DNA from: a virus
Reading direction: 5' to 3' (one strand)
IMG/VR virus record: IMGVR_UViG_3300022539_000610
Span: 32,001-96,000 of that record
Length of the DNA stretch: 64,000 nucleotides
Shown piece by piece: positions 1 to 60,181 of the stretch. The position numbers were made by a program, and so were the translations under genes. Under the pieces are notes generated by a model. The model had not been told where the DNA came from and ran no database searches. It was given only the letters and a program-made list of their open reading frames with translations. How positions within the stretch are numbered: position 1 is the stretch's first letter; each line of letters opens with the position of its first letter.

Positions 1-143
1 AGTAGGGTTGTTATTATTTTTATCTGGATGATGAAGCTTAACAAGTCCAATGTCACAACAACTACAGCACATACCAAACCTAAACATACAGAAAACCCTA
101 ATATTATTACTGCACACAACAGCATATCAACTACCTCCTTTCG

Positions 144-371
144 TTACCATTTTAAACCCACTAGCTCCCCCTTCTCATTCTCTCTTTTCTTTCTAAAGCA
201 AATAGCAGTTCTTGGAGAGAACATAGTACCCAATGAACTAGACGAGCTCTCTGCCAAGCCTTTTGAAACGAGTGATCTCAGTGTAGACAAACCCTCACGG
301 AGTGAGTAAGCACTCTGATGTTTCTCAGTGAGTTTATCATACGCCCTTTGCTGGATTGATGATAATTTCAT
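144..371 (-). CDS. small hypothetical early-region protein
   Basis: 75 aa ORF with the shared GGAAGGAGA ribosome-binding leader. Confidence 0.7.
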   Translation of the reverse strand: MKLSSIQQRAYDKLTEKHQSAYSLREGLSTLRSLVSKGLAESSSSSLGTMFSPRTAICFRKKRENEKGELVGLKW

Positions 372-400
372 GGTGTCTTCTCCTTCCTTTCTTTTAGGTT

Positions 401-446
401 AATTCCTCATTTAAGCCCCTCTCGAAAGGGGCTTAGTGAAGAATTA
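401..446 (-). repeat. intergenic long hairpin (early-region repeat, divergent copy)
   Basis: minus strand TAATTCTTCACTAAGCCCCTT...AGGGGCTTAAATGAGGAATT; begins at the stop codon of 444..743. Confidence 0.7.
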
Positions 447-743
447 CAAGAATTTTAAATACCACGCAAATGTACTTCTAACCTTTCTGTCTTCACAGAG
501 AACTCTGTATGCAGGATTACGATACGTTATATATGACCCCATATTAAGAGTAACATAAGATCGAACAACCACTCCTTTACCAGTAAATCTAAATCTAGGA
601 TCGCGAAAGGTAACTTTGTCACCAATCCCAAACTTCCCTGGCTTTAGAAAAGAACCGTCTCCATAATCCTTATTCTCCTCTACTGCCTTTATGATCTCTA
701 GTCTTGTCATTTCTACCGTCACTATGATCTCTCGTTCTGTCAT
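444..743 (-). CDS. hypothetical protein (possibly SH3/KOW-like)
   Basis: 99 aa; FGIGDKV...GVVV pattern. Confidence 0.65.
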   Translation of the reverse strand: MTEREIIVTVEMTRLEIIKAVEENKDYGDGSFLKPGKFGIGDKVTFRDPRFRFTGKGVVVRSYVTLNMGSYITYRNPAYRVLCEDRKVRSTFAWYLKFL

Positions 744-745
744 TG

Positions 746-976
746 TTATTTCTCCTTCCTCTTTAACGTTTTTAATGTCCTCTGTCCTTCTTTAAGGCCC
801 AGAGTCGTGCCAGCTCCATGGTCCCTAATTATAAAATAGGCTACTCCCTCTGCAGTGCCTATATATACAACTCCTGCATTCTCACCTTCAATGTGAAAAT
901 TAACTAAGCTACTTCGATACTTTTCAAGCAGCTTTCGTGACATGTCCTTAGGTTTAATTATTTGTCCGAGTTCCAT
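746..976 (-). CDS. hypothetical protein
   Basis: 76 aa ORF, GGAGG RBS. Confidence 0.65.
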   Translation of the reverse strand: MELGQIIKPKDMSRKLLEKYRSSLVNFHIEGENAGVVYIGTAEGVAYFIIRDHGAGTTLGLKEGQRTLKTLKRKEK

Positions 977-1006
977 ATTCCCTCCATATTATAGAGTTTA
1001 TATTAA

Positions 1007-1120
1007 CTCACACTACCTTCTATTTCTTCTTCTACTTGCCTTTGCCATTTTGCTTCTTTTACGATTCTTTGCCTTCATGTTAGCAAAATGTCTTGAGTCA
1101 TCTGAAATGATGAATTTCAT
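1007..1120 (-). CDS. 37 aa Lys/Arg-rich peptide (not in ORF track)
   Basis: hand translation MKFIISDDSRHFANMKAKNRKRSKMAKASRRRNKKVV; purine-rich leader. Confidence 0.55.
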
Positions 1121-1138
1121 TTTTTACCCCTTTTCCTT

Positions 1139-1540
1139 TTAAGAATTTCCAAGTGCCCGACCCCATCGAATAACTCCACTCCATTGCTCTTTTGGAACAG
1201 CATTGACAATCCTATCAATCAAACTGTCCAACTCAGATTTCTCCACACGATAAGAAGCAAGATAGAACTCAGCCCTTACAGGCATACAATGATGCGGAGC
1301 ATGTGGGGAGACCAAAAAAGCTACCATTCTCCACACATAAGCTGATCTTCCTCGTAACCGATCCTCCTCAGAGCTATACTTAAAATGATAATAAAGAATG
1401 CCTTCGCCATGTTTCACCTCTTCCAAATTAGGCTTCATTGGTGAGGAAGCCCTGAGATGACCTTTGACGCAAATCCTTTTTAAGATTTCTTCCTCTTCCT
1501 TAGTGGTGCCTTTGTAAGTAATTTCTGGCATTTCATTCAT
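1139..1540 (-). CDS. phage hypothetical protein
   Basis: 133 aa, GGAAGGAGG RBS, AYVWRMVAF..HHCMPV motif. Confidence 0.75.
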   Translation of the reverse strand: MNEMPEITYKGTTKEEEEILKRICVKGHLRASSPMKPNLEEVKHGEGILYYHFKYSSEEDRLRGRSAYVWRMVAFLVSPHAPHHCMPVRAEFYLASYRVEKSELDSLIDRIVNAVPKEQWSGVIRWGRALGNS

Positions 1541-1569
1541 TTCTTTTACCTCCTTCCCTTAAGGTTACC

Positions 1570-1785
1570 CTACCAGTAAAAGCAAGGTTTGCGGTCTTTT
1601 ACGTCTACAACTTTGCCCCACTGTTCTGGGTTAGTAGCATTACAACCTGCAATAATGGTTTCATTAGTATCCTCTGGATTCTCATGCAAATTGCTGGTAA
1701 GCTCTTGACCATCATCAAAAACCATTGTAAAACTAACCCCAGTTTTCCTTTTAGCTATGTTATCCAAGTCTCCGTAAGTTATCAT
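1570..1785 (-). CDS. hypothetical protein
   Basis: 71 aa, shared RBS leader. Confidence 0.7.
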   Translation of the reverse strand: MITYGDLDNIAKRKTGVSFTMVFDDGQELTSNLHENPEDTNETIIAGCNATNPEQWGKVVDVKDRKPCFYW

Positions 1786-1815
1786 CTTCTATTCTCCTTC
1801 CCTTAAAGTTAACAT

Positions 1816-1870
1816 TAATCCCTCATTTCTGCCCTCCCCTCTTTTAACGAAAGGGCAGAATCAAGAATTA
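1816..1870 (-). repeat. intergenic long hairpin (early-region repeat)
   Basis: minus strand TAATTCTTGATTCTGCCCT...AGGGCAGAAATGAGGGATTA. Confidence 0.75.
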
Positions 1871-2035
1871 ACTCGCTTCAAGTTCTACTCGACATAGTTC
1901 ACCAAGCTCTTGACGGTCAGTTGAGACAAGCTCTTTCAACTCAGTAATCTCAACTTTCCGTCCATGCAAGCCTTCACTAAAGAACTTTCATATAGCCGCC
2001 ACGTCAGACAATTTTTCTTCTTTTACCTCTGCCAT
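1868..2035 (-). pseudogene. 55-codon gene with in-frame TGA at codon 16
   Basis: MAEVKEEKLSDVAAI*KFFSEGLHGRKVEITELKELVSTDRQELGELCRVELEAS; strong AGGAGGTGA RBS; final TAA coincides with hairpin start. Confidence 0.6.
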
Positions 2036-2095
2036 TATATATCACCTCCTTTCCTTCCTTTTTAAATGGTTAACCCTCTCATATCTGCCTATTCT

Positions 2096-2378
2096 CTTAG
2101 TTTTAAAGAACCTCTGGTTTCAGCTCAGGTGACTCGTTTCAGGCACGTTCGCAGGAGAAACCCACTTGCTTGGCTGATTGATTACAGCGCCCGTGGCGGC
2201 ATCCTGACCTCACAGAGCCCAATCCCGACCTAATTTCCCTACCCTTAACGAATAAGGGGCCAAAATAGCCTTGTGCGGCCTATGGCAACTTCTCAGTACT
2301 AATAGCATCCGCTGGGGTGCTCGTCCTGTTTTCCCATCACTTTCAGTTTACGTTTCCCAGAGGTCCCTTAAAACTAAG
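2096..2378 (-). ncRNA. candidate structured non-coding RNA of unknown class
   Basis: 22-bp terminal helix (2096-2117 with 2357-2378) whose two mismatches are G-U on the minus strand; GC-richer interior with hairpins; no credible ORF. Confidence 0.6.
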
Positions 2379-2437
2379 TAACCCTCTCATATCTGCTCAC
2401 TTTAACCTTAGTCAAAATGAGCAGTATCAAAAGATTA
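2378..2437 (-). repeat. intergenic long hairpin (early-region repeat)
   Basis: minus strand TAATCTTTTGATACTGCTCA...TGAGCAGATATGAGAGGGTTA. Confidence 0.85.
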
Positions 2438-2491
2438 TCCCTGATTCTTATACGGATATCAACCACCAAGAAGTGATTGAGGTTAAAGGGT

Positions 2492-2662
2492 TTAATCACG
2501 AGCGGCCCCAGTCCAGTTATCAGAGTTGGTGAAGAAGGCATCAAGGTCACCTCCGGCAGCAAGGTTGTCGCAGATACCGTCAAAGAAAGAATTAGTGTAA
2601 TCGTTAACATCATAGGGGCCAGTTACGGCAATCAAATCACGAAAAAAGAAATAAGTTGTCAT
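2492..2662 (-). CDS. 56 aa acidic peptide (not in ORF track)
   Basis: hand translation MTTYFFFRDLIAVTGPYDVNDYTNSFFDGICDNLAAGGDLDAFFTNSDNWTGAARD; GAGGAG RBS with shared leader. Confidence 0.65.
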   Translation of the reverse strand: MTTYFFFRDLIAVTGPYDVNDYTNSFFDGICDNLAAGGDLDAFFTNSDNWTGAARD

Positions 2663-2813
2663 CCTCTTTTCTCCTCATATTTAAATGGTTAATCGTCAAT
2701 CCCTCACTTCCACCCTCTCATTTGCCTTCTCTATAAAAGTCGCGAAGGTTATGTGAAAAACGTTCAACGAAAGAGCGGAATCAAGGATCGTCTTTCTCCT
2801 TCCTTGTTAATAA

Positions 2814-3110
2814 TTATGACAATAAAGATTCTAATCCCTTTGCTAAAGCGTTATCAGGATTAGTCCAGCATTCTGCTGACTCTGTTCCGTCAGGCAAAAT
2901 GTAAGAAAAATCTATGTTCTGATATCTGACTGTATCCCCTGCTCCATTTGTAGTAAGGACAAACTCTACATGCTTCCTATTGCTAATGCCCATTTTCACT
3001 GCTTCTTCTGCAATGGGCTCAACAATGCTATCCCAAATAGCTAATCTGTCTTTAAATGATATATGCTTCATACCAAAAACCCTGTCATGTTCTGTTCTTA
3101 AATCTATCAT
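2814..3110 (-). CDS. hypothetical protein
   Basis: 98 aa, shared RBS leader. Confidence 0.7.
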   Translation of the reverse strand: MIDLRTEHDRVFGMKHISFKDRLAIWDSIVEPIAEEAVKMGISNRKHVEFVLTTNGAGDTVRYQNIDFSYILPDGTESAECWTNPDNALAKGLESLLS

Positions 3111-3146
3111 CTTCTTTCTCCTTCCTTTGTTAGTGGTTAAAATTTA

Positions 3147-3338
3147 TTAGCCATCTATAACATTATCATGAGTAATAGTGGCATTGCATTTTTTACATTT
3201 TGTAGATTTAAGAATTATAAAACTCCAAGCTGCAAGATCGTTAAATTCCTCAATATGATTACAATTAGAGCATTTTACTTTAATTCTAGAATTGTTTTCC
3301 TTCCTATCCATTTTAATCTCTTTGTCTAGTTTATCCAT
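3147..3338 (-). CDS. zinc-ribbon protein
   Basis: CSNC...CKKC. Confidence 0.7.
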   Translation of the reverse strand: MDKLDKEIKMDRKENNSRIKVKCSNCNHIEEFNDLAAWSFIILKSTKCKKCNATITHDNVIDG

Positions 3339-3361
3339 AATTTCTCCTTCCCTTTAAATGG

Positions 3362-3420
3362 TTAACCTTCTCATATCTGCTCATTTAACTAAAAGCCAAA
3401 TGAGCAGTATCAAAAGATTA
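3362..3420 (-). repeat. intergenic long hairpin (early-region repeat)
   Basis: near-identical to 4339..4396. Confidence 0.9.
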
Positions 3421-3440
3421 CCTTCTGGTTCTATCACCTT

Positions 3441-3659
3441 CTATAGCTGAATCAAATCACTACTGTATTCATTGAAATAAGAGGTAAAATTGGCTTTCCT
3501 GGCTTTGGTAATTAATGCCTCCTTTGACTTACCACTTGCGGATCTAAACCCTGCTACGGTAGGACATTCATACCAAATCATCTGCCAAGCGCCTAATGTA
3601 TTTTTGTAAATCCTACAAATCCCATCTCCTACTACGATACCCGCGTTTATTGTTTCCAT
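3441..3659 (-). CDS. hypothetical protein
   Basis: 72 aa, shared RBS leader. Confidence 0.7.
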   Translation of the reverse strand: METINAGIVVGDGICRIYKNTLGAWQMIWYECPTVAGFRSASGKSKEALITKARKANFTSYFNEYSSDLIQL

Positions 3660-3698
3660 CTTTTTTCTCCTTCCTTATTTATAGGTTAATCTACTATA

Positions 3699-3757
3699 TA
3701 ATCCTCTCATAACCGTTTACCTTAACCTAAGCCAAAGTAAACAGTATCAAAAGATTA
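3699..3757 (-). repeat. intergenic long hairpin (early-region repeat)
   Basis: minus strand TAATCTTTTGATACTGTTTAC...GTAAACGGTTATGAGAGGATTA; compensatory changes versus other copies. Confidence 0.8.
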
Positions 3758-3943
3758 GCTTTCTTGACTTTCCCAATTTTTCCCATTCCAAATCGCACCC
3801 CACTTATCTCCATTAGGAAATTTGATGGGAACAATAACTTCTCCCTCATCCTCATAAGGGTCATCATAGACCAAACATTCTATCCACTTCCCTGTCCGCC
3901 ATTCACGTACATCTAATTTATCGCCCTTTTTCACTTTTTTCAT
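3755..3943 (-). CDS. small beta-barrel-like hypothetical protein
   Basis: 62 aa, VKKGDKLDV start. Confidence 0.7.
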   Translation of the reverse strand: MKKVKKGDKLDVREWRTGKWIECLVYDDPYEDEGEVIVPIKFPNGDKWGAIWNGKNWESQES

Positions 3944-4034
3944 CTTCTTTCTCCTTCCTTCCTTAAAGGTTAAATTAGTTATTCCTAAAACCCGTTACAT
4001 AATCCCCTCATATCTATTCTGGCCTTCTCCTTTG

Positions 4035-4313
4035 TCATGGTTTTATAATATTCTTTTTCAACATAGTATGTATTATCATTCCAGACATATTACCAAAACA
4101 ATGATCGTAAGTTGATCTGTGCTCTACTTTTAATTCTTCAGGGGTTCTTGTATCACCTCCATGGTAGTCAATAATATCACTCCAAAAGAATATATTATTC
4201 CACATTGCAGATTTTACCTTTTCCAGCCTCTTCTGAGTCATTCCATTAGCCCAAAACTGTTTATTAGCCATAAAGTGATTCCAGTATTCTTCTTTCTTCT
4301 CTTCTGTTGGCAT
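4035..4313 (-). CDS. hypothetical protein, first gene of early operon
   Basis: 92 aa, shared RBS leader. Confidence 0.7.
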   Translation of the reverse strand: MPTEEKKEEYWNHFMANKQFWANGMTQKRLEKVKSAMWNNIFFWSDIIDYHGGDTRTPEELKVEHRSTYDHCFGNMSGMIIHTMLKKNIIKP

Positions 4314-4338
4314 CTTTTTTCTCCTTCCTCGTTAAAGG

Positions 4339-4396
4339 TTAACCCTCTCATTCTGCTCATTTAACTAAAAGCCAAATGAGCAGTATCAAAAGATTA
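4339..4396 (-). repeat. intergenic long hairpin (early-region repeat)
   Basis: minus strand TAATCTTTTGATACTGCTCATTTGGCT-TTT-AGTTAAATGAGCAGAATGAGAGGGTTA. Confidence 0.9.
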
Positions 4397-4632
4397 TCCC
4401 TAATCTATTATCGTCTTAACCTGTTGTCATCTTCCGGTTTGCTGACTACCCTACCCGACTGGCCATCTTTACCGGCTCTCGGGAGCTCCTCACCGGCTTA
4501 ATTCACCGGCTGCTCGCAATTTATATCCCATTTCTGGCTGGGTATTATCCGCACCTTTGCGCTACTAACCTCTTCCGCCTGAGATGTTCTCAACTCAATC
4601 TGGATCCCACTGACCCATGAGGCTTTCGACCT

Positions 4633-4668
4633 AATTGTCTAAGAGCGTTTTGGAAACTTTGCATTTCC
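4633..4668 (-). promoter_or_regulatory. boxB-like hairpin followed by boxA-like antitermination site
   Basis: GGAAAT-GCAAA-GTTTCC then CGCTCTTAGACAATT (lambda boxA CGCTCTTA; rrn boxA TGCTCTTTAACA). Confidence 0.55.
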
Positions 4669-4746
4669 CTCGGATGAGACCTAATGCCTCCCCCGGATGT
4701 GCCTTTTTACTACTATTTTTATATCTCTTTCTCATAATTTATTCTT

Positions 4747-4775
4747 ATTATAAAGGTTAGTTTTAAAAGGATCAA
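4747..4775 (-). promoter_or_regulatory. sigma70-type promoter of the early operon
   Basis: TTGATC-17 bp-TATAAT with AT-rich upstream DNA. Confidence 0.75.
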
Positions 4776-4915
4776 ATAGCATATGCCCGGAATTTTATTG
4801 GTTAGATTAGAGTAATGTTTGTTATAACTATTTAATTTCATTACATAATCCGTAGAAACCGTAAAGACCATTAATAATACCGAACTCAAAAATCCTTTAG
4901 ATTCCTTAGTTTCTC

Positions 4916-5200
4916 TTAGTTTATTAAAAAAACCCGGTTTTTTCCCCGTTTTTTTTTATTTTTTTTATTTTTTCTTAGGGTTTTAATATCTTGAACGTTT
5001 ACCATAAGCCTTTTCTCTTTTTCAAAGTAAATAACAGAGAGCTCATTGTTGAGGTATCGTAAGCGGACAAGCTGACCAGAAACACCAAACTTTCGGGAGG
5101 CTTCTTCGACAGTTATCCACTCACCATCGGGCAAGTGAGACAACGAGAGTGGGTGGGACCTGGATGCTAACCATCTATAACTAGCTGCCATCTCTCTCAC
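4916..5200 (-). CDS. putative helix-turn-helix DNA-binding protein
   Basis: WITVEEASRKFGVSGQLVR pattern, basic C-terminus. Confidence 0.55.
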   Translation of the reverse strand: MREMAASYRWLASRSHPLSLSHLPDGEWITVEEASRKFGVSGQLVRLRYLNNELSVIYFEKEKRLMVNVQDIKTLRKNKKNKKKRGKNRVFLIN

Positions 5201-5340
5201 TCCTATATGGTAGGATATTCAGATTTATCAACAAAGGATTGTATATGAGGTAGGTCATGGTAGGTATGAGTGTGATTTGTTTCAATTCTTTTTCACTCTC
5301 CTTCCTTCACTTATATTATAATGGTTTTTAGAGGAAAACC

Positions 5341-5386
5341 AAAAAATCTCTCCACAAACCTGCTTGAGGTCATGTTGAAGAGATTT
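5341..5386 (-). terminator. probable intrinsic terminator
   Basis: minus strand AAATCTCT...AGAGATTTTTT downstream of 5421..6005. Confidence 0.5.
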
Positions 5387-5420
5387 GATGAGTCAAGTTG
5401 AGGTTGTGTTTGGTGGGTGT

Positions 5421-6005
5421 TTAGTCAACATCCTCACTGGCAGTCTTGATCATATTTTTGTAGTACTTCTTCTCCAGATCAGTCCGTTTCGCGGGGGGTA
5501 ATCCTTTCTTCTGAATCTTCTCAACGTTGTCAGCCATGTGTTTTGCTGCTGCCTTGAGGGCATCCTTAGATTTCTCATCTAGGTCTTCTTCTCGAAGTTT
5601 CTTCTTCTCCTTTAAATAACCTCCACAATTCACACAGAGTTCTTCCTTCGTTGGAAGCCCCACATAACCACAGGCAGGACAAGGGATTTTTCCCAGGGAA
5701 CTTAAGCCTTGTTCTAGAATTTTTTGTGCTTTTGACATTTTATTCTCCTTTATTTTTGTTAAAAGTAGTTGTATAGAGGAAGCTCTAGATTCACTCTTCC
5801 AGCCCATTTTTTTCGCACATTCAGGCCCAACCATTTTCTTTAGAACACCAACTACATACTGGTAGAATCTATCTGAGTCCTCTTCAAAGCCTTTTTTCTT
5901 TGCTCCTGCTTTTGCTTCTTCCCACTTACCCTCTAATTCAGACATGGGAATACCACAGGAGTCAGCTATTTTGTTTAGTAATGCTACTGGCATTTTTTCT
6001 CCCAC
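5421..6005 (-). CDS. putative head-internal multi-module protein with zinc ribbon
   Basis: CPAC..CVNC; internal MSKAQKILE motif. Confidence 0.65.
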   Translation of the reverse strand: MGEKMPVALLNKIADSCGIPMSELEGKWEEAKAGAKKKGFEEDSDRFYQYVVGVLKKMVGPECAKKMGWKSESRASSIQLLLTKIKENKMSKAQKILEQGLSSLGKIPCPACGYVGLPTKEELCVNCGGYLKEKKKLREEDLDEKSKDALKAAAKHMADNVEKIQKKGLPPAKRTDLEKKYYKNMIKTASEDVD

Positions 6006-6176
6006 TCCATTCTGTTTGGTTTTTTATTTCTTCTTCTACTCTTTTTGAGTATTCTTCCTCTGATTCATTATCATACCTATGAGGTGCGCCTGTATATGGA
6101 CTTAAAGCACCTCCTTCTACGATACCTTCTAACTCCTTTATCCTGGGAGTATCTAGAAAAGAAGTATCATTCTTTT

Positions 6177-6404
6177 TCATTCGATCACTTTTTTGGGAAG
6201 ATTCACCAAAAACCACTTTCCATTTACCTCCCGTTCAACCTTCAGAATCACACTCCTCTTAATAGGGGTGTTCTGCCCATTCAGCCTCCTCACATGTAAC
6301 CACTTTCGCCCAGCAGAATATTCATCGATGTCTCCCACATCAACTATTCCAGCCTTGGTGTGTACTCGAAGATGTTTCCGAGCTATTTTCTCATCATTTT
6401 TCAT
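6177..6404 (-). CDS. hypothetical protein
   Basis: 75 aa, GGAG RBS. Confidence 0.55.
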   Translation of the reverse strand: MKNDEKIARKHLRVHTKAGIVDVGDIDEYSAGRKWLHVRRLNGQNTPIKRSVILKVEREVNGKWFLVNLPKKVIE

Positions 6405-6461
6405 CTGTGTGGTGGCTCCTATAAAATGGCTATTTTGGTTAGTTTTTCTTTAAGGCTATAT

Positions 6462-6516
6462 GGTATAGCCTAATGGGAGATCTCTTAAGTAAGAGGGTGT
6501 TTTACTAATCTGACAA
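6462..6516 (-). promoter_or_regulatory. conserved ~55 bp intergenic motif, copy 1
   Basis: AAAACAC-N14-GATCTCCC-N7-TATACC, also at 32810 and 54375. Confidence 0.6.
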
Positions 6517-6526
6517 GGTATTAGAA

Positions 6527-7531
6527 TTAAATCTTTGACCAATACTCGTCAGGCATTTCTAAGGAAAGCTTAAGTGCCCCAACAGCACCTCCAAACTCAG
6601 GGTCCTGAGTGCACTCAACATTTCCACCTCCATAAGCCTCAAGGCCTTTTTCAACTGCCCGGTCTATGCCCCGGAGTCGTGAGCCCCCTCCAGCTATAAT
6701 GACATTATTACGTAGGTGCTCCTGAAAATCGGCATCAAATGAGCCTACCAGAGCCTGGACAGCTTTACAAATAGGATCGGTCATCTGGAGACAACAATCC
6801 TGCAAAAGTCCAGTAAGATCATAAGTTCCAGGTATTCCCTTCTCTGTTAACGTTACAATAACTTTTTCAGAAATTCCTACATAGCCATATTTCTCCTTGA
6901 GCCTTTGGATAATCTGAGGGGTTAACTGAACACCAGGATACAAGTTTAAAATAGCTTCGATAATTTTGCTGTCAAGGAAGTTCCCTGCAGTAGTGAGGGT
7001 AACTTGATCCCCCTCTTCTGGTAAGCTACCATGTATTCGACATGCATCCACTGTTCCTGCTCCCACATCAACCACCAGACACTCGTCAAACCTATCCATC
7101 CCATAGGCGACGGCAAAGGGCTCTGACACTATCAGAACCTTATCTACTAAGGAGCTACACAGGTCAACAAGAGCCTTTTTGTTATGTATACTTGCCTGAG
7201 CAGGTACTCCTATAGCAGCATAGATCTGGTCACCTTTCCTTTTGTCAGGAATAGCCTGGACAAGCATATCCCTTAAAATAAGGGTGGTTGCCTTGATAGA
7301 AGGTTCATCCTCCTTCATCACTCCATGCTCAAGGGGCCAGACCATGTTGAGAGCAAGCCGATTCTTTATTGCCTCCTGCCCCAGAAGGTAGTCTCCACCT
7401 TTAAGTCTTTTTCTTGATACTACATCCTTTGGGTATCCAATGCAACTCAGTGTTGTCAACCTTGCGCCTGTAGATGTTGCCAATGAAGTCCTGCTAGTCC
7501 CCAAGTCAAATCCGGTGTAAAAAATAGTCAT
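6527..7531 (-). CDS. MamK-like bacterial actin
   Basis: actin motifs GFDLGTS, VDVGAGT, AGGGSR plus MamK-like segments GYPKDV, IGVPA, VSEPF, DQVTLTxAGN, EMPxxYW. Confidence 0.85.
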   Translation of the reverse strand: MTIFYTGFDLGTSRTSLATSTGARLTTLSCIGYPKDVVSRKRLKGGDYLLGQEAIKNRLALNMVWPLEHGVMKEDEPSIKATTLILRDMLVQAIPDKRKGDQIYAAIGVPAQASIHNKKALVDLCSSLVDKVLIVSEPFAVAYGMDRFDECLVVDVGAGTVDACRIHGSLPEEGDQVTLTTAGNFLDSKIIEAILNLYPGVQLTPQIIQRLKEKYGYVGISEKVIVTLTEKGIPGTYDLTGLLQDCCLQMTDPICKAVQALVGSFDADFQEHLRNNVIIAGGGSRLRGIDRAVEKGLEAYGGGNVECTQDPEFGGAVGALKLSLEMPDEYWSKI

Positions 7532-7638
7532 TTTCTTTTTCCTCCTTTTTAAATTCTATTAGATTCAACTATCTGATTTTTCTTTTTTCTGTCACCTCTT
7601 GTGCCATAATATTAGGCTTGAGTAGCCAGTAAGGATTC

Positions 7639-8412
7639 TCATGCAATACTCGAACAGATACCAATACACTCAATTTCTTTTTCCTCTTTGCTGTCGTAAA
7701 AAGAGGACAATTCTTCACGTTCAATTCTTCCCCGAAATGCTTCTAGCGTTTCATCCTTAAAGAATGAAATGTCTTTACCTAAATATTGTCGCACTTCACG
7801 CTCTACACGCGCTCTGTCTGCATATACTTCTGGAAGTTTTTCATATAGAAGTTTCCAATGCTTCTTCCCTGCTCGAACACACCCACCGGAACAGTTGTTA
7901 TGTTTAAAGCCAAGTCTATACAATAGGGGTTCTTCTATCCCCACATTTCTTAAAAAGTCATTTATTTGTTCATTTGTTTTATTCTCTTGTATTAGGGGAA
8001 ATAAGAGTTCTGACTGTTTATCTTTTTTCATTGCCACCATTTGATAAACATCATCCAGTCTATTTGCTCTGTGGGTTTCACCAATTCCAATTCCAAAGAC
8101 TAAGGTGTCCCCATCTTTATAGAACCTCTGAAGCCTTTCTGCTTTTAGAATCCGTGAACAGAATGGCATACGATCGTTAGCTAAGGCATTATTATCATAA
8201 AACAACTCTTCTGGGCTTCTTCCATCTGAGTCTAAAGTTATCTTATGGTCAAAATAATTCTCTAAATCAGAGAGAAATCTATACAGATCAGGGTGTTCCC
8301 ATTTTGTATCGTTGAAATACAAAATGACATCTTCCTTCGGGTATTGTTTGAAAGTCCAATCAGCACACCATGCTGATGCCTTACCCCCGCTTATAGCTAC
8401 AATTACGCTCAT
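7639..8412 (-). CDS. PAPS-reductase-like PP-loop protein
   Basis: AISGGKAS, CSRILK, HNNCSGGC. Confidence 0.8.
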   Translation of the reverse strand: MSVIVAISGGKASAWCADWTFKQYPKEDVILYFNDTKWEHPDLYRFLSDLENYFDHKITLDSDGRSPEELFYDNNALANDRMPFCSRILKAERLQRFYKDGDTLVFGIGIGETHRANRLDDVYQMVAMKKDKQSELLFPLIQENKTNEQINDFLRNVGIEEPLLYRLGFKHNNCSGGCVRAGKKHWKLLYEKLPEVYADRARVEREVRQYLGKDISFFKDETLEAFRGRIEREELSSFYDSKEEKEIECIGICSSIA

Positions 8413-10750: not shown

Positions 10751-11932
10751 TTATACCCACACCAAAGTTCTGGAATGAAAAATCCAACTATCCAACTTTC
10801 CTACCACCCTATCAAAACCCCTTCCTGTAGAATCCTTTAAGCCGACAGAACTACCCCCATGCCATACTTCATAAATGCTATCAACTAATTTAATTAAATC
10901 CTTCGGTTGGTGAAAGTATCGTTGTTTTCTGATATTAATTCCATCTCTTCTCTGGATTTGCAATCGCCGATTATTCTTTCTTCTTTGGATTACACTGAAT
11001 GGTTTAGATCTAGTTTGCTTCGTTCCACTCGCTATAACGAAGGCATCATTTATATGTGACTTTTCCAAACCTAGATTCACTCTGTTTACTTTCGTTAAGT
11101 AGCCATACGTTCTTTCGATTTCGGGATACCATTTAGTGAATATACTTCTAATGATATTCATAAAAGAGGATTCTTTGTATTGTCTGGCCTTCTTCAACCT
11201 ATGTTCTAAATGTTGCTTATGCAACTTATCATGGCAACTCACATGAAGAAGGGCTCTGTTCTTGGGTCTATCTGTTCCCCCTTTACTTCTAGGTATGATA
11301 TGATGTAATTTCCATGGATCACTTTTCCTATATAGTTTACTACAGAGTTGACATCTACTTTTCTCTCTGGCTAAAACATACTCCTTTATGTTTTGGTATC
11401 CATACAAGTCCCCTTGCTGATACCCAGTGCCTTCGATGTCTGGATTTTCAAGTTTTTGGATATCAAAATTACCTAATTCAACAATTGTTTTAGATATAGG
11501 GAGAAAATCTTTTAACTTTTCTATGACTCTGAAATGGGTTCTAGTTCTCCTTTCTACTGAAGGGGGTAGCCAACCTTCTTTCCTTCTTCTATTGTTGAAT
11601 CTTGGTTCCCGATGTCTTAGTTTACCCCTACGATGCACTCGGTACATTCTACGATCGTCAAGTCGTCTTTTCGTATTACTGTCTACTCTCACCTCACCAC
11701 TAATTAGTTCTTCTTTCTTGGATACACAGGAAAAACCAATGTATTCATAGCCAGAGTCGATGCCGCAGGAAACATCCTGGGTATATTCCTTAGAATCATA
11801 AAGGAGCTGAATAGTGAAAGGTTTTCTCTTTACAACCTTTGCTTTGTCTTCTTTCAACAACAATCTGGCCACAACAGACCATGTTGGCATCAAAGGCTTT
11901 CCAGATTTTGATAAAACAAATACTTCTTTCAA
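10751..11932 (-). CDS. iscB: IscB RNA-guided endonuclease
   Basis: PLMP N-terminus, RuvC-I GIDSG, Arg-rich bridge helix, RuvC-II VELGNFD, HNH HHIIPRSKGGTD..N..CH, RuvC-III SHINDA; TTG start after GGAGG. Confidence 0.93.
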   Translation of the reverse strand: MKEVFVLSKSGKPLMPTWSVVARLLLKEDKAKVVKRKPFTIQLLYDSKEYTQDVSCGIDSGYEYIGFSCVSKKEELISGEVRVDSNTKRRLDDRRMYRVHRRGKLRHREPRFNNRRRKEGWLPPSVERRTRTHFRVIEKLKDFLPISKTIVELGNFDIQKLENPDIEGTGYQQGDLYGYQNIKEYVLAREKSRCQLCSKLYRKSDPWKLHHIIPRSKGGTDRPKNRALLHVSCHDKLHKQHLEHRLKKARQYKESSFMNIIRSIFTKWYPEIERTYGYLTKVNRVNLGLEKSHINDAFVIASGTKQTRSKPFSVIQRRKNNRRLQIQRRDGINIRKQRYFHQPKDLIKLVDSIYEVWHGGSSVGLKDSTGRGFDRVVGKLDSWIFHSRTLVWV

Positions 11933-11944
11933 ACTGTCCTCCAA

Positions 11945-12196
11945 TTATATACTCTACTTCTAAGAGTAGGTTGATTCCCTTCGTCAATGTTATCTTATGG
12001 TTTTTATTTACTACACTAAGACTTTCATCTTTATTTAATAGTAAATCGCAGAGTTCGGAACTAGGGAGGCATTCCGAAGTGCCTATATCATTCACAAGTA
12101 ACGTAGTACACGAAGTACTTAGACTAACCACCTCTTACGACATACATCACTGTATGTGCCTAAACCCCTGAGTTTATTAGGGTTTAGGTAGGTGGC
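11945..12196 (-). ncRNA. omegaRNA (HEARO-type) scaffold
   Basis: directly upstream of iscB; GCCACCT..AGGTGGT helix, CTACGTT, GGCACTTCGGAATGCCTCCCTAGTTCCGAACTCTGCG, AACATTGACGAAGGGA; 3' end approximate. Confidence 0.85.
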
Positions 12197-12490: not shown

Positions 12491-12574
12491 TGGTGGGTGA
12501 GAGAGGAATCGAACCTCTATGCTTTCGCAACGACTTTACAGGCCATGGGACTCACCACACTGTCCAACTCACCC
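12491..12574 (-). tRNA. tRNA-Tyr(GTA)
   Basis: GGGTGAG/CTCACCC acceptor, CT-GTA-AA loop, variable arm, TTCGATT T-loop, encoded ACCA. Confidence 0.9.
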
Positions 12575-12751: not shown

Positions 12752-13348
12752 TTAGATTTCTAATCCCATTTTTCTGCCTACTTTTTCAAGATAGGAGATT
12801 ATTTTATTTACTGATTCCTCAATGGTTTCTTTATCAGTCGTAACTGTTATTTCAGGGTCTTGTGGTTCTTCGTATGGAGCAGAGATACCAGTGAATTCTA
12901 GGATCTCCCCGGCCCTTGCCTTTTTATAAAGACCTTTCATATCCCTCTCTTCACAGGCCACTAAGGTACATTTGCAAAAGATCTCTATAAATTCACTTTT
13001 ATTAGCCAGATCTCTTGCCTTTTTTCTATCTACCCTGTATGGTGATATAAATGCTGTCATGTTGATGACTCCAGCCTGACTAAAGAGATGAGCCACTTCA
13101 CCGATTCTCCTAATGTTTTCCTCCCGATCCTTGGGTGAAAATCCTAGGTCTCTGTTCAGACCATGCCTGATATTATCCCCATCTAAGACAAAGGTGATGT
13201 GTCCGGCCTCATAAAGCCTCTTTTCTACTTCAACAGCCAGGGTGGATTTACCTGAACAAGAAAGACCCGTAAACCACAGGGTAACTCCTTTTTCCCTATT
13301 GACTATAGGGTCATGCCATGTGATGTTTTGACTTTTTGGATTATCCAT
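12752..13348 (-). CDS. cysC: adenylylsulfate kinase
   Basis: [31 protein letters not shown]. Confidence 0.95.
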
Positions 13349-13399
13349 TTCTTCTGGTAGCGGTTTGATATTGTCCTCCTTTCTTTATTATAGTAGTTT

Positions 13400-54997: not shown

Positions 54998-57900
54998 TTA
55001 GCTGAAGTTAGTTACAACAATCCTAACTACGAAGTTAGGAACCACAACCTTCTGTGCTGCCCAAACTGCCGCAGCCTTCTGACTCAGGAGCGGGTTAGCT
55101 CCCGTGGGAAGTGCTGAAGTTACAACAAGCGGCATATCATTATCTTCATTAAAGTTCGTCACACTTTAATCGTAGCCAATTATACACTGACTACTGCTGC
55201 ATCTTTTTGTATACATGCAGATGGGACTATCTCACAATCTATGGTATCAGCAACTTTCCATAGATCCTCACCGTTACTTCCTCCATTTAGAGCTTTACAC
55301 TCTTTGACTAGAGGCTTTCTTACATCAGAAATAGTAAACAACTTCTTCTAATGTTTTTAGTCTCTCAACCTTACAACTGTAGCCCTCATTTGCTTGAGGT
55401 TTAGCTACAGGATTTCGGCTCTTGTATTACCCCTACGCAGCCATACGAAGGGGTTCCACAGATTTAGGTAAGTTTTCCATTGAAGATTGCTCTTCAACGC
55501 CGCATATTTCATACGGGGCGTACACTGCTGCAGCCTCGAAGGGGCTCGTGCCCTTGTAGAGACACAGCACGTGGTTGGCAGTAAGCACAGAATTACTAGG
55601 CACTCTCACTACTGTAATACCATCGAGGGTACCATAGATGTGAGGACCAAGGGTGTTGCCATCAGAAATCTTGGTCCACCCAGGCAGCGTACCTATAATA
55701 GAAGCAGCACTTCGACCAGCAATCATTACAGAGATGGTTCCTCGGCCTGCAAGACCTAACATCAGGTTCTCAGCCCGCATTACAGCATCTTTAAATGACT
55801 GTTTATGCTCGAAATAGCTAACACCAGTTCCAGCAGTATTAGTCCAGTTGTAGCTATTAGTGGCTCCCCAAGTTGCATGGGCATTTACCAAGTTATAGAT
55901 CAACGTGTTCATAACCTCAGCATTGATAGCAGAGATCAAATCCGACGCCAACTCATCCTCAGCAATCATCCCAAACCTACGCCGCAGGGCATAGGAGGCC
56001 TCTAAGCCAATGGTTTCCTTCAAAGCATACACACATGCCATGATGGAATCAGACTCAAGATTCATATAAATCTGGGGTATATCAGTAGCAGCTGCCAGGT
56101 CCTGCTGGTAGTCAACATAAATCGTGTTGCCATCACCAGGATCATTTTCCAACTCTACAACCAGGATACCAGTGGCGTAACCAACTGTTCCCTGGATATC
56201 GTAGCCTACCAGAACTCCTGCACCATTGTCTGTGGCGGTATACGTTGTGCCACCGTACGTTACAGTAACCGTGACCGTATAAGGTCGAATTGGCCTCAGT
56301 GCGAGAGGTATTGTATGGGTGTAACTCAGATCACCATACTCTGTGGTCTCGTCAAACGCTACCTGGGTCTGACACGCACTGGCAAACTCCCTCGGGTACG
56401 CTTCTGCATGGGCACGAGGATCAAAGATCTTCTGCCCAGTAGTTACATTACCCTTGGTTGTTTGGGATAAAATGTTTTTGAAGTAGATGGTTCCCCTTTC
56501 CTCTGGGATCGCCTGAATACTAGCGCAAACCCCTATTGGGCTTGTTCCATATGCTACTGATATGACATCGACATTTATCTTCGCTACAGTTCGCTACTCT
56601 GTAACCGTTAAGCCTTTGCTTAACTGCTGCATGTCTCCATGCAAGGTGTGACTATCTCATCACCTCTTCTAATGAAGAGGGCCTACCGCTTCGTTAGAAA
56701 GTGATCGTCACTTCACTCCCTAATCCGTTTTCACGGAACCCGCTTGGGCCTACTCCCTTCCGGGATAGTCGATGAACTTTCCACACTTAGCACATCTAAG
56801 TGAGTATTAGCTGCTGGTTGCCTTAACAAATCCTCAATCCTCGAAGTTACATCAACAAATCGTTCTTTGACAACGAAAATTTGATAATCCAGTAATTTCA
56901 ATTCCTCAAACTTACTTTTCTTACTTGACTTCATGTAGTAACTATGAGTTTCTTTCAACCTATTCAAAACATCCAAATGCGCTTGATAATCAACCTTAGC
57001 AATAAATAAGTTACGTATCCAGTTTACTACTTTTTTAAACCGAACCCTTCCACTTCCTGGATTTTCTATCTGTAATAATGTTGGATTCGGAATCCGAATA
57101 ATGCAAATATTATAGTTTTCCTTAATATACCTATCTCTACTAACATCGTATTTAAACTGACGTTTATCCACAACGTGATGAAATCCATCCACTTCCACGC
57201 CAAGTCGCAAGAAAGGTATATAGAAATCAAGCAAATAAAAACTACGAGGAGTAAACATAACCTTTTGAAGTTGGACTGAGTTACCCTTTCTGAGATTTTT
57301 ACAGATCTTCTCACGCCTATTCCTAACCATTGTCCCTACTCCACGATACTCAAATGGAAAAGATCCAAACTTAGGCTGGGTACGTAAAAGACCTACAAGG
57401 GCATTAACAACATAATCAAATATATCTTCATACTTAGTAGAAACCAACAAATTTTCATAACGAAACTGCGCTATTCTATCTACCCTTCTCCCACCAACCT
57501 TTATATTATCTATCCTAACATTCCTATAGTCACTATCAATTAACTCAAACTTAAACTCATCATCAAATACACCGACGAATGATGACACAAGTAAAGGTAA
57601 AAAGTTCAAGTTAATACTACGAATCCCAACAATCTCAAACTTAACCCTCCTGACTTTCCTTTTAGTATCATTATAAAGACTAAACTTCCAAGAATCAAGA
57701 ACATGAGGGTTCCTTACCTTACTTGGGTTCAAACGAACATTCCCATAACTACTAACCTGAAATCTATCCAAGTACTTTTTATCGCCAGAATAGATATCTG
57801 CATCTATATTAACCCAATATTCCATCTTCAAAACTCCTTTGCTTCATATCCGATAAGGAAAGAGTGAAGCTTTCTTCTCTTACTAACTATCCTTACCTCG

Positions 57901-58326: not shown

Positions 58327-59889
58327 TCATCTTGAAAACTGACCTAACATTCTCTCACCACGACTTGTACTAGAGATAGACTTTTTTGACTCAGAGATCT
58401 CTTCACCCTCACCAGGCTCATCCTTGTCTTCCTTCATCTCATAACTTTTGGAGACAGAAAGTCCGAAGTTCTCTCTCATGATGTTACCAGTTTCAATAGC
58501 AGCGTCCTTGGAACCAGTGTTGTCAAGTAATTTCCCAGCCTTTTCATCATCGATCCCAAGGGCCTCTGCGACATCTTTTACATCCCGGGTTCGTTTGCTT
58601 TTTCTCATATCTTCAACAATTGTCTCCGTGAGTTCCAAGAGTCTCTCAATTTCCTCTGGGGTACCGAGTTCCAGGAATGACTCAGCCAAATCCATCACCC
58701 CTTCGATGTCTTCTGGGGTACCGAGCTCAGAGATCTTCTCAACAAAGTCCTTTGTCTTTTCAAATGCCTCGTTGATCTCACCAGGGGCACCAAGATCTGT
58801 ATACTGCTGAAGCACATCCAGAGCCTCATTCAACTCTGCGATTGAGCCTAGTTCTTTGATGGACTCAGCAAGTTTCTTTGCTCCCTCTAAGGCCTGCTCA
58901 ACCTCTTCCGCTGATCCTATATCCTTATAAGACTCAGTGGCAGCAGTAAGATCCGTAACTTGCTCCTTGGCTGCTTTAAGATCCTTCTGAGTGCCCTCAA
59001 CTGCCTCTAACACCTTAGAGAGCTCTGAGACAGTTCCCAGCTCCTTATACTCCTTCAGGGATTCCTCAGAAGCACTTACCCTATCCTTGGCAACTGCGAG
59101 TTTGCCTTTTAAGTCTTCGTTGTCTGCCAGTACCTTGTCCAGATCAGCTTGAATGTTGTTCTTCTCTGTCACAAGATTTTCCAGCATTTTAGTTTCTTTC
59201 TCTTTAGCTTCCATAATGAAAACCTCCTCATTGGTTTCTTGTTCTTGTTCTTGTTTATTATCAGCAGTAGAATCTTCATCTACTACTAGTTCTTCTTTTA
59301 CTATCTCAGGATCAATTCCATCCTCAACTAACTCAGGAATTGCCCCTTTAACTCCTCCAATCTTCACAAAGTCAAACGTTTCCAACCTGAAAGTGTCAGG
59401 ATCTATAGCTTGTGCTTCGCCTGTCGGAGTATTAACCTTACCTTTAAACTTCCCATAAGCACGAGAGGAGGTTGCAAGTCTAACTCCTCCTCGAAAATAT
59501 GTATTCAACACCTGCCCTGTTGGTGTGTTAAGAATAAGAGCTTCAATCATCCCTATGTGTGGATCGCCCTCATCCATCCAGAGCTTGACTATTCTATGAG
59601 AGGCTTTACCTTCACGAAGGGCCTTGTCATCCAGCTCCTGATCATGTCCAATGGTGCCAAGCATGAGGCCATTGTCCATATTTTTCTGATTCTCAGTAAT
59701 CACTTTCGACCAAAGCTTCTTCTTGTAGTACCTCCCATTTTCGCTTGCTCCATCAACAATGAAGCCCTGCCCACGAACACGGGCTAAGATATGCTTCCCA
59801 TCTATAATAGGGTCACCCTTGGCCTCACAAAGTTGCCAGGCCGTTTCAAACATAAATTGGTCTCTAATAAGTTCTAATCCATTTTCCAT
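58327..59889 (-). CDS. prohead protease (gp21-like) fused to scaffold
   Basis: NGRYY, GTIGH, ASHRI, TPTG, SSRAYG, FDFV; acidic coiled-coil C-half. Confidence 0.9.
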   Translation of the reverse strand: MENGLELIRDQFMFETAWQLCEAKGDPIIDGKHILARVRGQGFIVDGASENGRYYKKKLWSKVITENQKNMDNGLMLGTIGHDQELDDKALREGKASHRIVKLWMDEGDPHIGMIEALILNTPTGQVLNTYFRGGVRLATSSRAYGKFKGKVNTPTGEAQAIDPDTFRLETFDFVKIGGVKGAIPELVEDGIDPEIVKEELVVDEDSTADNKQEQEQETNEEVFIMEAKEKETKMLENLVTEKNNIQADLDKVLADNEDLKGKLAVAKDRVSASEESLKEYKELGTVSELSKVLEAVEGTQKDLKAAKEQVTDLTAATESYKDIGSAEEVEQALEGAKKLAESIKELGSIAELNEALDVLQQYTDLGAPGEINEAFEKTKDFVEKISELGTPEDIEGVMDLAESFLELGTPEEIERLLELTETIVEDMRKSKRTRDVKDVAEALGIDDEKAGKLLDNTGSKDAAIETGNIMRENFGLSVSKSYEMKEDKDEPGEGEEISESKKSISSTSRGERMLGQFSR

Positions 59890-59932
59890 TGTTTAACTCC
59901 CAATAAATCAAAGTTTCTTAACAAAACAATTC

Positions 59933-60181
59933 TCAATAATTAGACCATAAAGGTTTTCCAACATCTCCCCACACCCCTTTTTCTTTCTTCCAAACCTCAA
60001 TATAAAACTTAGCCTTCGAATACTGTTGTACCAAATCCTTTGCAGCCTTTATTGCTTCCTTTGAATCTTTATAGTAAGATGACATATCCTCTAATACTTC
60101 ATCAGAACTACGATCATATACAAAAACCCCATAATCATCTTTAGCTTCAATAAGATCTAATATATCTCTTGCTTTACTCAT
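59933..60181 (-). CDS. small protein with MSKA leader
   Basis: MSKARDILDLIE. Confidence 0.7.
   Translation of the reverse strand: MSKARDILDLIEAKDDYGVFVYDRSSDEVLEDMSSYYKDSKEAIKAAKDLVQQYSKAKFYIEVWKKEKGVWGDVGKPLWSNY

What the first reader, a model, noticed from the sequence alone, without database searches (positions are those of the whole stretch)
2069..2437. Orphan ~280 nt structured RNA nested in a processing-type stalk
Seen: 2378-2096 is closed by a 22-bp helix whose only mismatches are G-U on the transcribed strand. The interior is GC-richer, non-coding, and has hairpins (e.g. CCCTTA-TTCGT-TAAGGG) and a run of four GGG tracts. The 3' arm of the early-region hairpin (GCAGATATGAGAGGGTTA) occurs both just before and just after it, so the 5' arm near 2437 could pair with the distal copy and loop the RNA out, as in pre-rRNA stalks. 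I could not match it to tRNA, tmRNA or RNase P. Inference: a discrete phage ncRNA released early in infection.
Basis: partly seen in the sequence, partly recalled or inferred. Interest (0 to 1): 0.7.

Follow-up and report, generated by a model that had tools for sequence, protein, structure and literature searches.

The report
Orphan stem-enclosed non-coding cassette in phage
A large uncultured phage carries, among its small early genes, a 283-base GC-rich stretch that codes for no protein and is clamped by a perfect-looking 22-base-pair RNA stem. It is probably cut out of the early transcript as a small RNA, but no relative, known family or internal fold could be found to say what it does.

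Summary
Window 2378-2096 (minus strand) is closed by a 22-bp helix, the only 20-of-22-or-better inverted repeat with a loop of 500 nt or less in the 64 kb (0 in 20 shuffles). Both mismatches are G-U on the transcribed strand. The 18-nt 3' arm of the early-region hairpin flanks it on both sides. The stretch is non-coding: no ORF on record, no Pfam hit in six frames. Its GC content is in the top 0.5% of the genome. It matches no Rfam family, even at E<=10.

The 239-nt interior folds no better than shuffled sequence (z +0.6). Two RNAs in the same genome, used as controls, give z -3.9 and -5.0. Looping out through the distal repeat costs about 17 kcal/mol. No homologue was found in phage, viral, metagenome or candidate-host collections, so covariation cannot be tested. 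The tools for sequencing runs and for contigs of close relatives were closed.

Best reading (about 0.5): a non-coding cassette in a PeSL-like array, excised by an RNase III-type cut in the stem. Whether it has a function of its own is open. The main rival is an inert insertion or recombination scar.

This scan noted the same stretch once more in this genome (e1-5976518), but on no other DNA. Interest is modest.

The parts
2434..2462 (-). Sigma-70-like promoter match TTGATA-17-GATAAT just upstream of the hairpin. It could start a transcript independently; it is weak evidence.
   Evidence: 10 of 12 matches. Such sites are not enriched over shuffles in this region (12 found against a mean of 10.3).
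2379..2437 (-). Full copy of the early-region intergenic hairpin module. Its last pair abuts the first pair of the stalk.
   Evidence: -31.6 kcal/mol, z -7.05. The same module occurs at 3420, 3757 and 4396 (families D2, D3).
2379..2396 (-). Proximal copy of the 18-nt repeat GCAGATATGAGAGGGTTA (3' arm of the module hairpin).
   Evidence: D10, 100% identical copies.
2357..2378 (-). 5' arm of the 22-bp stalk. Its outer 15 nt resemble the usual cassette leader (TTTAAGGGA...).
   Evidence: (I3).
2118..2356 (-). 239-nt GC-rich non-coding interior. The 3' half (2232-2121) is predicted as one long irregular hairpin. It also holds the hairpin 2258-2242, the four GGG tracts 2244-2218, the motif AUUAGGUC at 2234-2227, and three CUGAAA.
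2096..2117 (-). 3' arm of the 22-bp stalk.
   Evidence: (I3).
2089..2095 (-). 7-nt spacer AGAAUAG. It resembles the end of a cassette leader (GGAGAATAG at about 1800).
   Evidence: read from the sequence.
2071..2088 (-). Distal copy of the 18-nt repeat. It lacks a 5' partner arm of its own.
   Evidence: D10.
2033..2070 (-). Standard leader with a Shine-Dalgarno sequence and the ATG (2035-2033) of the next small ORF, which carries an in-frame TGA at 1990-1988.

Best explanation
The stretch is a non-coding cassette in the phage's early gene array. The array is one long minus-strand transcription unit of small genes separated by a conserved RNA hairpin plus leader. In this slot the gene is replaced by a 239-nt GC-rich segment, clamped by a 22-bp helix that sits directly next to a module hairpin.

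Shown: the helix, the repeats, the lack of coding capacity, the unusual composition, and the absence of any known family.

Inferred:
- The region is transcribed with its neighbours.
- The 22-bp duplex is cut by a double-strand-specific endonuclease. This would be the host's RNase III, since neither phage record encodes one.
- The cut frees an RNA of about 280 nt and separates the upstream message, left with a protective 3' hairpin, from the downstream one.

Whether the freed RNA then acts on its own is open. Possible roles are protein binding, a decoy or a guide. I put that at roughly 0.35-0.4 within the overall 0.5.
For: - The stalk is unique in 64 kb and absent from 20 shuffles. Pair probabilities are >=0.97.
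- Both mismatches are G-U on the transcribed strand. Only 1 in 6 possible substitutions per base pair gives that. For two independent changes this means p of about 0.03-0.1, by my own arithmetic.
- All genes of the record lie on the minus strand. The neighbouring module hairpins are strong RNA structures with many U-G pairs (z -7).
- Non-coding status rests.
- GC content is in the top 0.46% of genome windows. The GC peaks I looked at in this genome were non-coding RNA or RNA-like elements: the group I intron at 56627-56887, the block at 4400-4745, and a tRNA-like element outside the window.
- The 8-mer ATTAGGTC occurs 4 times on the minus strand of 114 kb. Three of the four lie in this stretch and in the second non-coding block at 4400-4745.
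- A 22-bp uninterrupted duplex is the classic size of an RNase III substrate (established knowledge: rRNA stalks, T7 early mRNA sites).
Against: - The interior has no thermodynamic signal: z +0.61 as a whole, -0.81 and +0.16 as halves. Two control RNAs of the same genome give -3.9 and -5.0.
- There is no paralogue in the 114-kb record.
- There is no homologue anywhere searched, so there is no covariation.
- There are no expression or end-mapping data.
- The G-U argument rests on two positions.
- The ATTAGGTC motif was noticed post hoc.
- No RNase III gene lies in either phage record, so cleavage depends on an unknown host.
Confidence: 0.5

Rival explanations
1. It is an inert insertion or recombination scar. 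A foreign, GC-richer DNA fragment was caught between two copies of the module by the module-mediated recombination that shuffles such arrays. Part of the leader was inversely duplicated in the process, which made the stem. The segment is transcribed passively and has no function.
For: - The interior folds no better than random.
- It is single-copy and an orphan.
- The outer 15 bp of the stalk look like a leader paired with an inverted copy of itself. The segment is followed by a leader remnant and a half module, and the next ORF is broken by an in-frame TGA.
- Its GC content differs from the phage's.
- PeSL-type cassettes in T4-like phages are known to swap unrelated sequences (PMC2839356, PMC4122927).
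Against: - A 22-bp duplex in a transcript is a liability unless tolerated or used.
- Both changes in the stalk keep RNA pairing on the transcribed strand.
- No donor sequence was found in 5+55+201 candidate host genomes.
- There is no target-site duplication next to the inverted repeat, and no second copy, as a MITE would have.
Confidence: 0.3
2. It is a cis-acting element of the operon rather than an RNA with its own function. It would be a processing or insulation site, or a long regulatory leader, that uncouples or tunes expression of the gene downstream (ATG at 2035) from the genes upstream.
For: - It sits between a full hairpin module and a complete leader with Shine-Dalgarno sequence and ATG.
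- The stalk stacks directly on the module hairpin.
- No terminator follows it.
- T7-type early operons use RNase III sites in this way (established knowledge).
Against: - The other slots of the array manage with the 60-nt hairpin alone, so 239 extra nt are unexplained.
- There is no riboswitch or leader family match.
- The downstream ORF looks disrupted by an in-frame TGA, while TGA is a normal stop here.
Confidence: 0.13
3. It is a very divergent member of a described RNA class built as a stem formed by the two ends plus an internal module: a Y RNA, a retron msr-msd, a group I intron, or a permuted form of a housekeeping RNA.
For: - The topology, a long terminal stem plus a module, is shared with Y RNAs.
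- The only viral relative found (G001/L102) carries five YrlA-like units on stalks a little downstream of the same MreB-like gene (after three small ORFs), plus an RtcB gene.
Against: - The YrlA model gives no match in this genome at E<=10.
- There is no tRNA-like head, no GNCGAA motif in the 5' part (read; motif from PMC4201824), and no TROVE/Ro60 gene.
- There is no reverse transcriptase.
- The group I model finds the real intron at 56627-56887 in this window but nothing here.
Confidence: 0.05

Closest known systems
RNase III processing stalks (pre-rRNA stalks; T7/T3 early mRNA RNase III sites)
   Same: A long duplex formed by sequences flanking an RNA within a polycistronic transcript. It is about two helical turns long and lies between cistrons of a phage early operon.
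   Different: Cleavage is not shown. The enclosed RNA is not an rRNA or tRNA and has no recognisable fold. T7 sites are hairpins with internal loops that enclose nothing.
PeSL cassettes of T4-like myoviruses (Arbiol et al. 2010, PMC2839356; Comeau et al. 2014, PMC4122927)
   Same: Short conserved stem-loop modules flank small variable genes in plastic regions of a T4-related phage. Duplicated module pieces lie at the borders of an inserted unit.
   Different: PeSLs are composite terminator/early-promoter motifs. Here the module is a roughly 30-bp U-G-rich RNA hairpin plus a translation leader, with no clear promoter. The cargo is non-coding.
YrlA-type bacterial and phage Y RNAs (Rfam RF02553; Chen et al. 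2014, PMC4201824)
   Same: The two ends form a long stem that carries an internal module. The class is phage-borne, and a relative (G001) has YrlA-like units at a comparable place.
   Different: There is no tRNA-like head, no GNCGAA motif, no bulged Ro60-site-like stem and no Ro60 gene. It is about 2.5 times longer, and the model gives no match.
MITE-like miniature inverted-repeat elements
   Same: About 280 bp, 22-bp terminal inverted repeats, no coding capacity, and a composition unlike the surrounding DNA.
   Different: Single copy. No target-site duplication abuts the repeats. No copies were found in candidate host genomes. Both mismatches preserve RNA pairing.

Membership tests
Any Rfam 15 family (incl. 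raiA, ROOL, GOLLD, RNase P, tmRNA, SRP, 6S, HEARO, riboswitches, ribozymes) | Covariance-model match at the family's gathering score, or at least a suggestive E-value. | tested here: not met
   Nothing reached gathering score. At E<=10 the only hit is a 15-bit microRNA chance hit on the module hairpin. Positive controls in the same window were found: HEARO 112.7 bits, tRNA 49 bits, group I intron 37.6 bits.
YrlA / Y RNA | tRNA-like module (T arm, closed acceptor stem, D arm). | tested here: not met
   No T-arm motif or permuted acceptor signature in 2096-2378. RF02553 gives no match in G000 at E<=10.
YrlA / Y RNA | Conserved GNCGAA(N)G motif near the 5' end, in the Ro60-binding stem (PMC4201824). 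| tested here: not met
   The motif is absent from the sequence at 2378-2300.
YrlA / Y RNA | Ro60/Rsr (TROVE) gene in the genome. | tested here: not met
   PF05731 has no match in G000 or G001. G000 is only about 53% complete.
Retron msr-msd | Reverse transcriptase gene directly downstream. Inverted repeats a1/a2 close the RNA. | tested here: not met
   Inverted repeats are present, but there is no RVT_1 match in the 114-kb record and only small ORFs downstream.
Group I intron | Conserved catalytic core detectable by RF00028, and insertion in a gene whose exons join. | tested here: not met
   No RF00028 hit at E<=10, while the same model finds an intron at 56627-56887. The flanks are intergenic module pieces, not exons.
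MITE | Terminal inverted repeats. | tested here: met
   22-bp arms, 20/22 complementary (I3).
MITE | Target-site duplication directly abutting the repeats, and multiple copies in the phage or host genome. | tested here: not met
   The flanks are ...GGGTTA and AGAATAG..., with no duplication. The 18-nt repeat is 7 nt away on one side only. It is single-copy in G000. No copies were found in 261 candidate host genomes; the one 20/22 arm match is inside a coding region with no partner.
RNase III-processed stalk | Uninterrupted duplex of about 20 bp or more in a transcript. | tested here: met
   22 bp, pair probability >=0.97.
RNase III-processed stalk | Staggered cleavage in the duplex in vivo or in vitro. 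| not testable with these tools
No RNase III gene lies in either phage record, so a host enzyme has to be assumed.
PeSL-like cassette array | Repeated stem-loop modules flanking small variable genes in a T4-related phage. | tested here: met
   Modules at 2437, 3420, 3757 and 4396, plus degenerate copies. The phage is T4-related by its prohead protease.
PeSL-like cassette array | The module contains an early promoter. | tested here: inconclusive
   Only one module (2462-2434) gives a 10/12 sigma-70 match, using upstream coding sequence. The others do not.

The most novel reading that the evidence does not exclude
This is the founding member of an undescribed class of roughly 280-nt phage RNAs. 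The RNA would be released, or even circularised, from the early transcript through a 22-bp stalk. It would act together with the second early non-coding block at 4400-4745, with which it shares the AUUAGGUC motif. Both might, for example, be binding platforms or decoys for one host or phage protein in phages of large filamentous sulfur or sulfate-reducing bacteria.
Probability: 0.2. Interest if true: 0.6.

Novelty: new member of a known kind. Interest (0 to 1): 0.3.

Why it matters
If the excised RNA is real and functional, it would add a new small RNA to the early programme of a poorly known group of large T4-related phages. Their hosts are probably giant or filamentous sulfur-cycle bacteria. 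It would also show that module-flanked cassette arrays can carry RNA genes as well as protein genes. As it stands, this is one orphan sequence with one strong helix. Its value is as a well-defined candidate for end mapping, not as a discovery.

Tried and rejected
**Searches for homologues (none found)**
- blastn against 50,697 phage records with the element and with window 1-8000: no match.
- Three pattern scans of viral contigs (the stalk, the G-tract region, a 3' segment): nothing, or unrelated chance hits.
- The conserved 16-mer of the module in viral contigs, and a 21-mer version in metagenome contigs: single chance hits only.
- The neighbouring MreB-like and 98-aa proteins in viral contigs. 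They gave only one distant phage, G001, which has no match to the element.
- blastn against 5, 55 and 201 Beggiatoales and Desulfobacterales genomes, chosen from the MreB-like gene's relatives: no match.
- nhmmer within the genome: no paralogue.

I therefore could not test expression, and could not reach the contigs of close relatives (MreB-like 88% identical; 98-aa gene >=90% identical on a 96-kb contig).
- Read laying could not be used without run ids.

**Readings considered and dropped**
- Alternative genetic code: TGA, TAA and TAG all end long ORFs.
- Pseudogene or host gene fragment: no Pfam hit in six frames.
- Permuted tRNA, tmRNA or other housekeeping RNA: no T arm or CCA-linker signature, and no partial Rfam hits.
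- G-quadruplex: not part of the minimum-energy fold even when allowed.
- Phage-encoded RNase III, Ro60 or reverse transcriptase: none.
- I first read the units in L102 as circularly permuted tRNA genes needing RtcB. Earlier notes of this scan and a full-length sub-threshold RF02553 match make YrlA-like Y RNAs the better reading.

Full report
**Context.** The window is bases 32001-96000 of a 114-kb IMG/VR virus record that CheckV estimates to be about 53% complete. All ORFs of 150 aa or more but two, which overlap minus-strand ORFs, lie on the minus strand. The prohead protease is about 36% identical to those of T4-related Rhizobium and cyanobacterial myoviruses. The genetic code is standard: TGA ends 25, TAA 24 and TAG 9 of the long frames. 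An MreB-like gene 4 kb upstream of the finding has its nearest cellular relatives, about 65% identical, in Beggiatoaceae/Thiotrichales and Desulfobacterales. That gives a tentative host range.

**The observation.** On the minus strand, 2378-2357 pairs with 2117-2096 over 22 positions, 20 Watson-Crick and 2 G-U.
- In a fold of 2450-2060 every pair of this helix has probability 0.97-1.0.
- A direct count finds it to be the only 20/22-or-better inverted repeat with a loop of up to 500 nt in the 64 kb. Twenty block-shuffled windows gave none.
- The 18-mer GCAGATATGAGAGGGTTA stands at 2396-2379 and again at 2088-2071 (family D10).
- That 18-mer is the 3' arm of the intergenic hairpin module, which recurs at 2437, 3420, 3757 and 4396 and in degenerate form elsewhere.
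- The module is a very strong RNA structure, -31.6 and -32.0 kcal/mol with z about -7.
- The small hairpin at 2258-2242 and the four GGG tracts at 2244-2218 are there as described.

**Not coding, not a known RNA.**
- All six frames are interrupted.
- None of the short ORFs in or around the segment is on record in the protein collection. The flanking small genes are on record.
- No open stretch matches Pfam at E<=1.
- ARAGORN finds only the tRNA-Tyr at 12491-12574.
- Rfam finds nothing here at gathering score. At E<=10 it gives only a 15-bit microRNA chance match on the module hairpin.
- The same searches do find HEARO, the tRNA and a sub-threshold but full-length group I intron elsewhere in the window. 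The negative result is therefore meaningful for described families.

**Is the interior structured?** The whole element scores z -3.14, but that comes from the stalk.
- The 239-nt interior alone gives -70.0 kcal/mol against -72.8 for shuffles (z +0.61).
- The plus strand gives z +0.32.
- The two halves give z -0.81 and +0.16.
- The 3' half is predicted with high pair probabilities as one long irregular hairpin (2232-2121). It is no more stable than shuffled sequence of this G-rich composition.
- Two controls from the same genome behave differently: the HEARO RNA has z -3.92 and the group I intron region z -5.01.
- Allowing G-quadruplexes does not change the minimum-energy fold.

What does stand out is composition. 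GC is 0.519 against a genome mean of 0.40 (sd 0.042), reached by 0.46% of windows. The GC peaks that I examined turned out to be non-coding RNA or RNA-like elements.

**Search for relatives.** I found none.
- There is no paralogue in the record.
- There is no match among 50,697 phage records, with the element or with 8 kb around it.
- Pattern scans of viral contigs with the stalk, the G-tract region and a 3' segment gave nothing or unrelated chance hits.
- Scans with the conserved module sequence in viral and metagenome contigs gave only single chance hits.
- The one viral relative reached through the MreB-like protein, a 273-kb phage (G001, 60% identity), has no match.
- Five, 55 and 201 genomes of the candidate host orders have none either.
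- Closer relatives exist. One is an 88%-identical MreB-like protein on a 9.9-kb contig. Others are >=90%-identical copies of the 98-aa gene 440 nt upstream, one of them on a 96-kb contig.
- Covariation and expression therefore remain untested. The absence of homologues reflects reach as much as rarity.

**Anatomy of the slot.** The flanks, read against the other modules, show the following order.
- A normal slot runs: hairpin, ATGAG(A/G)GG-TTAACC, TTTAAGGGAAGGAG leader, ATG.
- Here the sequence after GGGTTA continues as CTTAGTTTTAAGGGA and then leaves the leader (CCTCTGG...).
- The 3' arm of the stalk ends in the inverted copy of that leader piece (TTCTTTAAAACTAAG).
- A leader-like AGAGAATAG follows, and then a module 3' arm without its 5' partner.
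- The outer 15 bp of the stalk are thus a leader paired with an inverted copy of itself. Only the inner 7 bp (CCTCTGG/CCAGAGG) belong to the inserted segment.
- There is no target-site duplication next to the inverted repeat.

This looks like a cassette in which the gene has been replaced. It was assembled by the module-mediated recombination described for PeSL motifs of T4-like phages (PMC2839356, PMC4122927).

This is possible on paper. With the proximal arm blocked, however, the best fold is -119.6 against -136.8 kcal/mol, because the distal copy lacks the upper stem. In the favoured fold the module hairpin ends at 2379 and the stalk starts at 2378, so the two helices can stack.

**Most likely mechanism.**
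- Shown: a unique 22-bp duplex on the transcribed strand, directly beside a strong hairpin, enclosing non-coding GC-rich RNA, with no terminator after it.
- Inferred: the region is transcribed from the strong promoter at 4775-4747 (TTGATC-17-TATAAT), or possibly from the weaker match at 2462-2434.
- Inferred: the duplex is cut by a host RNase III-type enzyme, since neither phage record encodes one.
- Inferred: this releases an RNA of about 280 nt. The upstream message is left ending in a hairpin, and the downstream one starts at a standard leader.

Support for selection at the RNA level is modest. Both defects of the stalk are G-U on the right strand. The 8-mer ATTAGGTC occurs four times on the minus strand of the 114 kb. 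One copy is here and two are in the other early non-coding block at 4400-4745; in that block both sit as predicted hairpin loops. That motif was noticed post hoc.

**Odds.**
- 0.5: an RNA-level cassette that is excised. Within that, less than half is for a function of its own.
- 0.3: a scar or inert insertion.
- 0.13: a purely cis-acting processing or leader element.
- 0.05: a divergent member of a described class.

**Comparison with known classes.**
- It works like a processing stalk of rRNA operons or a T7 early RNase III site, and it sits in a PeSL-like array. It is a member of no RNA family that I could test.
- Y RNAs share the topology. The relative G001 carries five units, in the order T arm, 3' acceptor strand, CCA, 6-8-nt linker, 5' acceptor strand, D arm. 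Each sits on a stalk, in a cluster a little downstream of its MreB-like gene, after three small ORFs. Two of them match the YrlA model over its full length at 37 and 34 bits, below the gathering score of 69. G001 also has an RtcB gene and no TROVE gene.
- I first took these units for permuted tRNA genes. Earlier notes of this scan and the YrlA paper (PMC4201824) make Y-RNA-like mimics the better reading.
- The element under review has none of the defining features: no tRNA-like head, no GNCGAA motif and no model match.
- Retron, group I intron and MITE readings each fail a defining test.

**Verdict.** The claims of a structured interior and of release as a discrete RNA are not established. It is an orphan candidate of a familiar general kind, of modest interest until a relative or a transcript is seen. 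This scan noted the same stretch once more in this genome (e1-5976518), but not on other DNA.

Noticed in passing
window 4400-4775 (-): A near-consensus sigma-70 promoter (TTGATC-17-TATAAT, 4775-4747) is followed by a GC-rich block of about 340 nt. The block has no Shine-Dalgarno-led ORF and no Rfam match (best E 0.45), and folds at z -1.4. It holds two hairpins with (A)AUUAG loops, that is, two of the genome's four minus-strand ATTAGGTC 8-mers. One copy reads GUCGAAAG, which fits the YrlA GNCGAA(N)G motif by chance or otherwise.
   Followed up: partly
window 56627-56887 (-): A group I intron (RF00028, 37.6 bits, E 7e-8, full model length, below the gathering score of 50; region z -5.0). It lies between ORFs 56731-57831 and 55433-56152, which may be exons of one late gene.
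   Followed up: partly
L103:13240-13385 (-) = G000 13240-13385, outside the window: A GC-rich element of about 145 nt. An 11-bp terminal stem (GGCAATGGGAG/CTCCCATTGCC) has a canonical T arm (GTGGG-TTCAACT-CCCAC) stacked on its 3' strand, followed by a run of T. ARAGORN does not call it, and Rfam has no match at E<=0.1.
   Followed up: partly
L102:11840-12990 (+) = G001 59870-61020: A 273-kb phage related through its MreB-like gene. A promoter (TTGACA-17-TAATAAT) is followed by five back-to-front tRNA-like units with encoded CCA and 6-8-nt linkers, plus one ordinary tRNA. Each unit is enclosed by a stalk whose 5' arm ends in TTACAG. Two units match YrlA (RF02553) full length at 37 and 34 bits. 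The phage has RtcB (220472-221554), no TROVE gene, and 20 ordinary tRNAs including a CUA-anticodon one. This scan has seen the same kind of RNA in other phages.
   Followed up: partly
window 1868-2035 (-): The small ORF directly downstream of the element (ATG 2035-2033) has an in-frame TGA at 1990-1988 and stays open for 39 more codons to the TAA at 1870-1868. It is either a broken cassette gene or a read-through site. Neither half is in the protein collection.
   Followed up: no
window 6527-7531 (-): The phage's MreB/MamK-like actin is 59-66% identical to a paralogue family. That family is found mainly in Beggiatoaceae/Thiotrichales (Thiomargarita, Thioploca, Parabeggiatoa, Thiothrix) and in Desulfobacterales (Desulfonema, Desulfococcaceae). 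This points to a large or filamentous sulfur-cycle bacterium as host.
   Followed up: partly
window 11970-12196 (-) and 10751-11944 (-): A HEARO/omega RNA (112.7 bits) lies upstream of a 397-aa ORF, that is, an IscB-type element inside the phage. Other readers of this scan have already noted it.
   Followed up: no
window 2698-2790 (-): An elongated, degenerate copy of the intergenic module with extra sequence inside it. It shows that slots of the array tolerate insertions.
   Followed up: no
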